A stretch of DNA of 64,000 nt from the human T2T-CHM13v2.0 reference genome, Homo sapiens: NCBI RefSeq assembly GCF_009914755.1, contig NC_060930.1; one strand, written 5' to 3'. This document shows, piece after piece, positions 62,406 through 64,000 of the stretch. Position numbers and translations under genes: made by a program. Every line of letters starts with the position of its first letter. Position 1 is the stretch's first letter. The notes below the pieces were generated by a model that was not told where the DNA came from, searched no databases, and saw only the letters and a program-made list of their open reading frames with translations.

Positions 62406-62490
62406 GATGCATTCTAAATTTCTGATATAATTACTTCTCAAACAAAACCATCGAATCATGTCAAATCAATCTGACTTAAAAGAGAAAGTC

Positions 62491-62815
62491 TTTTTTTAAT
62501 TAAGTTAAAAATTTATTGACATTCTGATTGTGAAAAACTCTAACATTGCTTTTAATTTATCATAGGAGTTACTTCCCAAAAATGTTAATCACAGCTGGAT
62601 TGAAAGAGTCTTTGGGAAATGGGGCAATGTTGTTTATGTAGGTATACCACATTATAAGTCTACTGGAGATCCAAAGGGATTTGCGTTTGTGAAATTTGAA
62701 ACAAAAGAACAAGCAGCAAAAGCAATTGAGGTAGGACCAGATCCTTTTGAAGAAAACAATTTCTTTACCTTCCTGAATTAGTTCCCAAAGATTCCTGTTC
62801 TCCTCCAGAAGGAGC
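62491..62815 (-). pseudogene. Probable retrocopy of a spliced transcript antisense to LARP7 (MIR302CHG-like)
   Basis: Contains a LARP7 exon in antisense with intron flanks. On the minus strand, AATAAA (62517-62512) lies 14 nt before an A7 run (62497-62491). The segment 62744-62815 resembles what I recall of the miR-302 host first exon. Confidence 0.7.
62566..62730 (+). pseudogene. LARP7-derived RRM1 exon copy (165 nt, 55 codons, no stop)
   Basis: Translates to [55 protein letters not shown] with the RNP1 motif KGFAFV(K)F. Four differences from recalled human LARP7 (C>W, I>V, S>G, E>K). Flanked by catAG and GTagga. Confidence 0.92.
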
Positions 62816-64000
62816 TCTGATGAACCTCGACACAGGCTGCAGAGCTCCTCTTTGTGTTCCTGTGAGGACAATGGTTGTGCCCTACCAGGCACTTAGTGTC
62901 CAGGGCACCCACCAGCTCTTTGCAGACAAGTTTCCCAGATGGTCTTTAAATGATCAACCAGGCTCGCTTTCATGGCAAGACCCTTCCTCCCACGGCTTCC
63001 CCCCGGCTGTGTCAGTGAAAACAAGGTAAAACATTAGCTTTGTTATTCAGCCAACAGAAAGCCTCTGGGAGGTGTATGCTGATTTTCTTTCTTTTCTATA
63101 CATTTACATTTTACAAGGGTCATAGCTCATTAAGACAAAAGTAGATCACCAGCGCATTTAACTTTGACCAGAAAAAAGGCACGCCTTTTTAAGTGGCCTA
63201 CATAAGATCTGTGGTCATTTTTAGATTAAACAAATGCAAAATACATTATTTTATATCGGGGCATATTTTTCTATCTTAAATACAATTTTTACTTTTTACA
63301 AGATGCGTTCCAACTCTTGGGAATATTTATTATTAAAAACGGGGCCTAAAACAAATAAGCAGTGTGTAATAAGCAAGTGGTATGTCCACTCAGCAACTGA
63401 GTTACCATATAGTACATAAAGTAACTGTAATCCCTGAAACTCCCAGTATACACAGCTAACCTCAGCCAATACATATTCCTGAAGAGAGATTGCTACAAGC
63501 CAAACTGTGATATCTAACAGGAACAAAGAACTGACTGTATACATTTGGACTCCCCATTTTACTTTGTTATGATTAAAGTATTGCCTTTAATGCAATAAAA
63601 AAAAAAAACCAAGCATATTTGCATTCAAGCTCAAAAAAGGAGTAAGGCGGGATTAAAACCATGGCTTCACGCTATTTTAACTATGAAAGAACATCAATCA
63701 ATAAAACGTAACTGAAAAATTCTTACTTGAAGAATTCTTTAGATAGCAGTAACATCAAATTCTTGTTTTATGTTTTTTCACTTAGTGTTCTGATTCACAA
63801 CTATTTTTTTCTTGTTGGCAACTCCCACTGACTCCAACTTAAATAAATAAAGTTTGTTTTGAGATGAGTTTCCATGGTAAGACACTACTTTAAAGCCGAT
63901 AATGCACTCAGTATGATACAGTTCCTCCACATTTTCTTTTCGCCAGATAGGTAGAATATCTCACATTCCCCTTACAACAACTTTGTAGCTTTCTACATAA

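What the first reader, a model, noticed from the sequence alone, without database searches (positions are those of the whole stretch)
62491..62815. Apparent LARP7 pseudo-exon is probably a retrocopy of the antisense miR-302/367 host lncRNA (MIR302CHG)
Seen in sequence: one 165-nt LARP7 RRM1 exon (62566-62730, plus strand) keeps its intronic acceptor (catAG) and donor (GTagga), with no neighbouring LARP7 exons, so it is not a processed LARP7 mRNA. On the minus strand the element ends in AATAAA (62517-62512), 14 nt, then an A7 run (62497-62491), which looks like the 3' end of an antisense polyadenylated RNA. Thirteen nt beyond the LARP7 donor there is a plausible exon-exon junction on the minus strand (TTCTTCAAAAG|GATCTGG, 62744/62743), preceded by CTTCTGGAGGAGAACAGGAATCTTTGGGAACTAATTCAGGAAGG. 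Established: the miR-302/367 cluster lies in a LARP7 intron on the opposite strand, in a spliced, polyadenylated, pluripotency-specific host transcript that overlaps LARP7 exons. Inference: L1 machinery copied the spliced host RNA (hairpin-bearing intron removed, and no miR-302 hairpins are visible here), probably in a pluripotent or germline cell. It would record an ancestral host-gene isoform and poly(A) site. The first-exon match rests on my recollection, and I could not identify a clean TSD.
Basis: partly seen in the sequence, partly recalled or inferred. Interest (0 to 1): 0.85.

Follow-up and report, generated by a model that had tools for sequence, protein, structure and literature searches.

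The report
Known retrocopy of miR-302 host RNA

Summary

- **Match to the parent.** Window 62497-62745 matches chr4 (the LARP7 RRM1 exon plus its intron flanks) at 240/249. Window 62744-62812 matches a second chr4 segment 1,658 bp away at 64/69.
- **What is missing.** The chr4 DNA absent from the window holds mir-367 and four mir-302 hairpins on the minus strand.
- **Ends of the copy.** The T7 run is absent from chr4, so it is a poly(A) remnant 14 nt after AATAAA. The other end lies 35 nt below a TATAAATA box in the parent.
- **Conclusion.** This is a near full-length processed retrocopy (exon E1 joined to E3) of MIR302CHG on the minus strand.
- **Prior publication.** Pan and Lin 2020 (PMC7692494) list it as T2S5-Human: chr6, minus strand, 319 bp, between CNKSR3 and SCAF8. 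They describe a donor site now mutated in humans and a possible L1-mediated target deletion. Both points fit my one-base junction discrepancy and the missing target-site duplication (TSD).
- **Age.** Divergence is 14/316, roughly 20-45 My.
- **Aside.** Three further human copies (chr7, chr8, chr3) are not in that paper's table. The chr7 copy starts at the expected Drosha cut after mir-367.

The parts
62491..62497 (-). Poly(A) remnant of A7 on the minus strand. The innermost A (62497) could be templated, because the parent has a matching base there.
   Evidence: Sequence. The parent chr4 has no such run at the homology edge (L002 1490-1501).
62512..62517 (-). AATAAA polyadenylation signal, 14 nt upstream of the A-run. 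A second ATTAAA signal lies at 62551-62556.
   Evidence: PMC8159989 states that the human host gene has two p(A) signals (passage seen).
62497..62743 (-). Copy of MIR302CHG last exon (E3), equal to chr4 115955062-115955308.
   Evidence: 240/249 identical to chr4 over window 62497-62745. A search with the parent exon returns this place at 96% over 1-247 of 247.
62566..62730 (+). Antisense passenger: a copy of the 165-nt LARP7 RRM1 coding exon. It keeps its intronic acceptor (AG at 62564-62565) and donor (GT at 62731-62732). It is carried because E3 of the host gene overlaps this LARP7 exon on the opposite strand.
   Evidence: 4wkr_A; E 2.9e-31 for the 71-aa query over residues 130-192. One search shows the flanks align to chr4 intron on both sides.
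62743..62745 (-). E1/E3 exon-exon junction. The two bases 62744-62745 match both chr4 pieces. 1,658 bp of chr4 carrying mir-367 and four mir-302 hairpins is absent here.
62744..62812 (-). Copy of MIR302CHG first exon in its long form (donor SS2), equal to chr4 115956969-115957037. It still contains the shorter annotated donor (GGAAG|GTAAAG) internally.
   Evidence: 64/69 identical. A search with the parent exon finds only chr4 and this place (2 matches). TATAAATA lies 35 nt upstream in the parent. SS1 and SS2 are described in PMC7692494 section 5.

Best explanation
Window 62491-62812, read on the minus strand, is a processed pseudogene of the lncRNA MIR302CHG, the chr4 host gene of the miR-302/367 cluster. 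MIR302CHG is transcribed antisense to LARP7.

**Inferred sequence of events**
- The host RNA was transcribed from its TATA promoter.
- It was spliced from the long form of exon 1 (donor SS2) directly to the last exon. This removed the intron that carries the five microRNA hairpins.
- It was cleaved and polyadenylated about 14-15 nt after AATAAA.
- It was reverse-transcribed and inserted on chr6, between CNKSR3 and SCAF8. The L1 machinery most likely did this, in a germline or early embryonic cell where both L1 and this RNA are expressed.

**Consequences**
- The LARP7 RRM1 'exon' with intact splice signals is only the antisense image of the host gene's last exon.
- The copy has no promoter of its own and no hairpins.
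- It has drifted 4.4% from the parent, so I take it to be inert.

**Shown versus inferred**
- Shown: the two-piece homology, the missing hairpin-bearing intron, the non-templated A-run, and the end next to the parental TATA box.
- Inferred: the L1 machinery, the cell type and the date.

It is the element published as T2S5-Human.
For: **Homology and the missing intron**
- Two-piece match to chr4 with 1,658 bp missing between the pieces (E 1.1e-111 and 1.4e-19; 240/249 and 64/69 identical).
- The missing chr4 DNA holds mir-367 (100 bits) and four mir-302 hairpins (78-82 bits), all on the minus strand. The window locus L001 has none at gathering score.

**Ends of the copy**
- On the chr4 minus strand a pyrimidine tract followed by AG directly precedes E3.
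- The A-run is absent from the parent and lies 14 nt after AATAAA.
- The 5' end lies 35 nt below TATAAATA in the parent.
- The homologous chr4 span is 1,976 bp. The human host gene is given as 1,984 bp, hg38 chr4:112,646,720-112,648,703, in the Fig. 1 legend of PMC8159989.

**Publication**
- Pan and Lin 2020 Table S2 lists T2S5-Human: NC_000006.12 154542798-154542479, minus strand, 319 bp, intergenic between CNKSR3 and SCAF8.
- Their text says T2S5 lacks E302, used SS2, and is specific to the human lineage among their species.
- This is the only chr6 match in three whole-genome searches.

**Independent copies of the same antisense RNA**
- Copies elsewhere in the genome (chr16, chr7, chr8) also carry LARP7 intron flanks. 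The chr7 copy has a clean 17-nt TSD.
Against: - **No TSD.** The best direct repeat between the two flanks is 5 nt, and 31% of 2,000 shuffles do as well. One of the three classical L1 hallmarks is therefore missing.
- **Short A-run.** It is only 6-7 nt long.
- **Junction off by one base.** In today's human chr4 sequence the junction cannot be made by GT-AG splicing. Taking the GT at the donor and the AG at the acceptor gives one G fewer than the window has. Keeping that G makes the intron start TT. The paper says SS2 is mutated in humans, but I could not see its Fig. S4.
- **Coordinate offset.** The published hg38 position of T2S5 relative to the CNKSR3 end differs by 585 bp from the T2T spacing in this window. 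I attribute this to assembly or annotation differences, but I could not check it.
Confidence: 0.96

Rival explanations
1. A DNA-level duplication of the chr4 LARP7/MIR302CHG region moved to chr6, followed by an internal 1.66-kb deletion.
For: There is no TSD. The junction is not an exact GT-AG product of the present human parent.
Against: - Both outer ends coincide with transcript ends: a TATA box 35 nt upstream at one end and AATAAA 14 nt before the other.
- A non-templated A-run sits exactly at the 3' end.
- The deletion would have to run from a donor-like site to the pyrimidine-tract AG acceptor and remove exactly the hairpin intron.
- The same junction type is reported for independent retrocopies in other mammals (PMC7692494 sections 5 and 8).
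Confidence: 0.02
2. A processed or partly processed LARP7 pseudogene, that is, a plus-strand mRNA copy.
For: The plus strand carries an open 71-codon frame that matches the LARP7 RRM1 domain (E 2.9e-31).
Against: - LARP7 intron sequence is kept on both sides of the exon, and no neighbouring LARP7 exon follows.
- The next piece is antisense-gene exon 1, not a LARP7 exon.
- The A-run and AATAAA are on the minus strand.
- Within the exon, 4 of the 5 base differences change the amino acid.
Confidence: 0.01
3. The retrocopy is not inert and has been co-opted as part of the RefSeq-annotated enhancer at 62423-63333.
For: Only the annotation line supplied with the finding: the enhancer interval covers the whole retrocopy. 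No call tested this.
Against: - The copy drifts at about the neutral rate (14/316).
- Pan and Lin found no small-RNA reads on any MIR302CHG retrocopy (Table S3).
- The enhancer interval is three times longer than the copy.
Confidence: 0.05

Closest known systems
T2S5-Human, MIR302CHG retrocopy (Pan and Lin, Sci Rep 2020;10:20612, PMC7692494)
   Same: Same chromosome, strand, flanking genes (CNKSR3 and SCAF8), length (319 vs 322 nt), exon content (E1-E3 without E302), donor (SS2) and lack of a clean TSD. I take it to be the same element.
   Different: Nothing of substance. The paper uses GRCh38 coordinates, and I could not lift them over. Spacing to the CNKSR3 end differs by 585 bp between the two descriptions.
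T1S1-Human, MIR302CHG retrocopy in an IQCK intron on chr16 (same paper)
   Same: Same parental RNA. It also carries LARP7 intron flanks around the RRM1 exon image (L004 1148-1204 and 1501-1663).
   Different: It is much older: 81-86% identity here, dated 105-96 Mya in the paper's Table S4. It is the isoform with the mir-302a exon and is interrupted by an Alu. No mir-302 relic is detectable in the human copy at E up to 1.
Ordinary L1-mediated processed pseudogenes of protein-coding genes
   Same: Intron loss, a 3' A-run after a polyadenylation signal, a 5' end near the TSS, and insertion on another chromosome.
   Different: The parent is a lncRNA and microRNA host gene. Because that gene overlaps LARP7 antisense, the copy looks like an isolated unspliced LARP7 exon. 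It also lacks a TSD.

Membership tests
L1-mediated processed retrocopy | Parental intron precisely absent at an exon-exon junction | tested here: met
   1,658 bp of chr4 is missing between the two matches. The acceptor is a pyrimidine tract plus AG. Caveat: the donor in today's human parent is off by one base, and the paper reports SS2 as mutated in humans.
L1-mediated processed retrocopy | Non-templated 3' poly(A) downstream of a polyadenylation signal | tested here: met
   An A6-7 run lies 14 nt after AATAAA and is absent from chr4. It is short.
L1-mediated processed retrocopy | Target-site duplication flanking the insert | tested here: not met
   The best flank repeat is 5 nt, reached by 31% of 2,000 shuffles. 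The paper calls this a possible L1-mediated deletion.
L1-mediated processed retrocopy | Empty orthologous site in outgroup species | not testable with these tools
   No primate genomes are held here. The paper lists the element only for human among 45 mammals that include marmoset (Tables S1 and S2). I did not see its Fig. 2 or its alignment files.
MIR302CHG-derived sequence | Homology to both the first and last exon of the chr4 host gene, in host-gene orientation | tested here: met
   E1 64/69 and E3 240/249 identical. Reciprocal searches with the parent exons return this place.
LARP7 processed pseudogene | Adjacent LARP7 exons joined without introns, with poly(A) on the LARP7 strand | tested here: not met
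   There is a single exon with intron flanks on both sides. The A-run is on the opposite strand.

The most novel reading that the evidence does not exclude
The window element itself is published. The newest reading the evidence leaves open concerns its family. The human genome holds at least three more MIR302CHG-derived copies (chr7, chr8, chr3) that are absent from the published table.

The chr7 copy looks like a retrocopy of the Microprocessor 3' cleavage product of pri-miR-302/367, not of the spliced host RNA:
- It has a 17-nt TSD and an A-run.
- It is unspliced downstream of mir-367.
- Its first base is chr4 115956216, inside the lower stem of the mir-367 hairpin, at the position where I expect the Drosha cut on the 3' strand.

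The old chr3 copy begins within 11 nt of the same point. If this reading is true, these copies are fossil evidence that Drosha-cut, uncapped, polyadenylated downstream fragments of a pri-miRNA survive long enough to be L1 templates.
Probability: 0.45. Interest if true: 0.45.

Novelty: already known. Interest (0 to 1): 0.15.

Why it matters
For this window it matters little. The element is an inert processed pseudogene and is already described in print. It explains away an apparent orphan LARP7 exon with intact splice sites.

Its modest value, also already published, is as a molecular fossil. [quoted passage not shown] It also confirms use of the distal AATAAA site.

The unlisted chr7 copy could be of somewhat wider interest for microRNA biogenesis, if its 5' end really marks a Drosha cut.

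Tried and rejected
- **TSD search.** Local alignment of 30-67 nt flanks with a shuffle control found nothing above chance.
- **Rest of the chr3 copy.** I looked for the remainder of E3 and an A-run downstream of the broken chr3 copy, in 11.5 kb of extra sequence. The best hit was 50 nt at 70%, E 0.006, on the wrong strand for a continuation. I do not accept it.
- **mir-302a relic in the chr16 copy.** An Rfam search at E up to 1 found only an Alu-like SRP match.
- **Hairpins in the chr7, chr8 and chr3 loci.** Rfam at gathering score gave 0 matches in 9,392 bases.
- **Printed mature miR-367 sequence.** I searched the review PMC4703056 for one, to fix the Drosha site, and got 0 occurrences. The mature ends are therefore recalled, not checked.
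- **The chr7 internal 791-nt gap as an intron.** Rejected: the parental boundaries read CA...TT, not GT-AG.
- **Exact hg38-to-T2T liftover of the T2S5 coordinates.** Not possible with these tools.
- **Unreadable supplements.** The paper's supplementary PDF (Figs S1-S6) and its three alignment files could not be read here. They may show the T2S5 flanks, the SS2 mutation and the empty site.

Full report
**Observation.**
- The T7 run is at 62491-62497.
- AATAAA on the minus strand is at 62517-62512, with 14 nt between it and the run.
- A 165-nt open segment at 62566-62730 is preceded by AG and followed by GT.
- The string TTCTTCAAAAG|GATCTGG lies on the minus strand at 62744/62743.

The translated segment is LARP7 RRM1. 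For the 71-aa query, PDB 4wkr_A gives E 2.9e-31 over residues 130-192. There are 4 amino-acid differences within the 55 exon-encoded residues.

**Where it came from.** The window's own assembly could be searched. With window 62440-62900 as query there were 7 matches: the window itself, two on chr4, one on chr7, two on chr16 and one on chr8.
- Window 62497-62745 equals chr4 115955062-115955310, 240/249 identical.
- Window 62744-62812 equals chr4 115956969-115957037, 64/69 identical.
- The 1,658 bp of chr4 between these pieces is absent from the window. Rfam finds mir-367 and four mir-302 hairpins there, all on the minus strand, and none in the window locus.

**Ends.**
- Left of the homology, chr4 reads ...cagaaacaata|taattaag with no T-run. 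The window's run is therefore non-templated: it is a poly(A) remnant of a minus-strand RNA, 14 nt after AATAAA.
- At the other end homology stops at 62812, not 62815. On the chr4 minus strand a TATAAATA box begins 35 nt upstream of that point. This places the copy's 5' end within a few bases of a TATA-directed start.
- The homologous chr4 span is 1,976 bp. The human miR-302 host gene is given as hg38 chr4:112,646,720-112,648,703, which is 1,984 bp on the minus strand, in the Fig. 1 legend of PMC8159989 (passage seen).

**Junction.** On the chr4 minus strand the last exon is preceded by a long pyrimidine tract and AG. The donor side reads ...CTTCTAAAGTTATGCC.
- Using the GT there gives a product one G shorter than the window.
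- Keeping the G makes the intron begin TT.
- So today's human gene cannot make this junction by GT-AG splicing.

The literature resolves this, as described next.

**It is published.** A full-text search for MIR302CHG found 21 papers, of which 20 were listed. I saw only titles and abstract starts for most of them. One is Pan and Lin, Sci Rep 2020 (PMC7692494). I read its sections 6 and 7, passages of sections 3, 5, 8, 12, 13 and 14, and parts 1 and 2 of its spreadsheet supplement.
- The paper describes MIR302CHG retrocopies with the mir-302a exon (T1S1-T1S4) and without it (T2S1-T2S8).
- Table S2 lists T2S5-Human: NC_000006.12 154542798-154542479, minus strand, 319 bp, intergenic between CNKSR3 and SCAF8.
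- The text says T2S5 is specific to the human lineage among their species, derives from donor SS2, and shows 'a possible L1-mediated deletion'.

This accounts both for my one-base discrepancy and for the long exon 1 in the window. That exon still contains the SS1 site GGAAG|GTAAAG internally.

The window element is the only chr6 match in three genome-wide searches. It has the same strand, neighbours and length as T2S5. One loose end remains: its distance from the CNKSR3 end is 585 bp larger in this T2T window than in the paper's GRCh38 figures, and I could not lift the coordinates over.

**TSD and age.**
- The best direct repeat between the flanks is 5 nt, and 31% of 2,000 shuffles do as well.
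- Divergence from the parent is 14/316, or 4.4% (5 differences in E1, 9 in E3).
- With rates of 1.0-1.2e-9 per site per year this gives about 19-23 My if both copies drift, and about 38-46 My if the parent were frozen.
- Part of the parent is a coding exon, so the truth lies in between. This fits presence in human and absence from the paper's marmoset row.
- Within the LARP7 exon image, 4 of 5 differences change the amino acid, as expected without selection.

**Mechanism.**
- Shown: the two-piece homology, loss of exactly the hairpin-bearing intron, the non-templated A-run after AATAAA, and the 5' end by the parental TATA box.
- Inferred: L1 reverse transcription of the spliced, polyadenylated host RNA in a germline or early embryonic cell, with loss of target DNA instead of a TSD.
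- The copy has no promoter or hairpin of its own. Pan and Lin found no small-RNA reads on any MIR302CHG retrocopy (Table S3).
- A RefSeq enhancer interval (62423-63333, from the supplied annotation) covers the copy. I have no evidence that the copy contributes to it.

**Other copies, outside the window.** A search with the parental last exon gave 7 matches: chr4 itself, chr6, chr7, chr16 twice, chr8 and chr3. The chr16 copy is the paper's T1S1-Human (IQCK intron, Alu-interrupted). Table S2 has no row on human chr7, chr8 or chr3 (0 occurrences each).

- **chr7 (L003 1258-1628).**
  - It is flanked by AAATGTTTCCATTGAGG on both sides and ends in an A-run just after the same AATAAA.
  - Its first base equals chr4 115956216. 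That is 3 nt before the end of the Rfam mir-367 hairpin and inside the lower stem, with about 11 paired bases below it.
  - By my recollection of the mature miR-367-3p and -5p ends, which no call checked, this is the Drosha cut on the 3' strand, and the fold gives the expected 2-nt offset to the 5p start.
  - It then runs unspliced for 243 nt (97% identical over BLAST's 250-nt alignment). It skips 791 nt without GT-AG and ends with the last 121 nt of E3.
  - Chance 5' truncation exactly at one of five such sites in about 1,976 nt is roughly 0.25%. That is my arithmetic, not a test. A reverse-transcriptase stall at the hairpin is a rival explanation.
- **chr8 (L006 about 1412-1740).** It holds all of E3 at about 69% identity, directly preceded by an exon-1 remnant (score 17 against a shuffle mean of 8.9; 3 of 2,000 shuffles reach it). 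It is an old E1-E3 copy.
- **chr3 (L012 1501-2415).** It is colinear and unspliced with chr4 115955200-115956205 at 72% over 1,018 columns. It begins 11 nt after the same mir-367 point. Its 3' end is broken, and I found no convincing continuation within 11.5 kb. Whether it arose through RNA or DNA stays open.

**Verdict.** Interest is low for the window itself. The unlisted chr7 copy is the one item worth a follow-up.

Noticed in passing
L003 1241-1645 (own genome C7, about 101628980-101629384): A MIR302CHG-derived retrocopy not in Pan and Lin's Table S2. It has a 17-nt TSD (AAATGTTTCCATTGAGG) and an A-run after the same AATAAA, and is 94-97% identical to chr4. Its first base is chr4 115956216, at the expected Drosha 3'-strand cut of mir-367 (mature ends recalled, not checked). 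It is unspliced for 243 nt, then has a 791-nt internal gap without splice signals.
   Followed up: partly
L006 about 1412-1740 (own genome C8, about 130324970-130325300): An old (about 69-72% identical) E1-E3 type MIR302CHG retrocopy: the full last exon preceded by an exon-1 remnant (3 of 2,000 shuffles reach its score). It is not in the published table of human copies.
   Followed up: partly
L012 1501-2415 (own genome C3:148278484-148279398): A 72%-identical copy, colinear and unspliced, of chr4 115955200-115956205. It contains the antisense images of further LARP7 exons. It begins 11 nt downstream of the mir-367 hairpin cut site and is broken at its 3' end by unrelated GC-rich sequence. Whether it arose through RNA or DNA is unresolved.
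   Followed up: partly
L004 1148-1663 (own genome C16:19749950-19750465): The published T1S1-Human copy in the IQCK intron, split by an Alu (SRP-like Rfam match at L004 1209-1300). No mir-302 relic is detectable at E up to 1 in L004 900-1300.
   Followed up: yes
window 62610: The chr6 and chr7 copies share a base at this position that differs from today's chr4 parent. The parent (a synonymous site of the LARP7 codon for V in ERVFGK) therefore changed after both insertions.
   Followed up: partly
window 62423-63333: The supplied RefSeq annotation places an enhancer interval over the whole retrocopy and 520 bp to its right. Nothing in my calls bears on whether the retrocopy contributes to it.
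   Followed up: no
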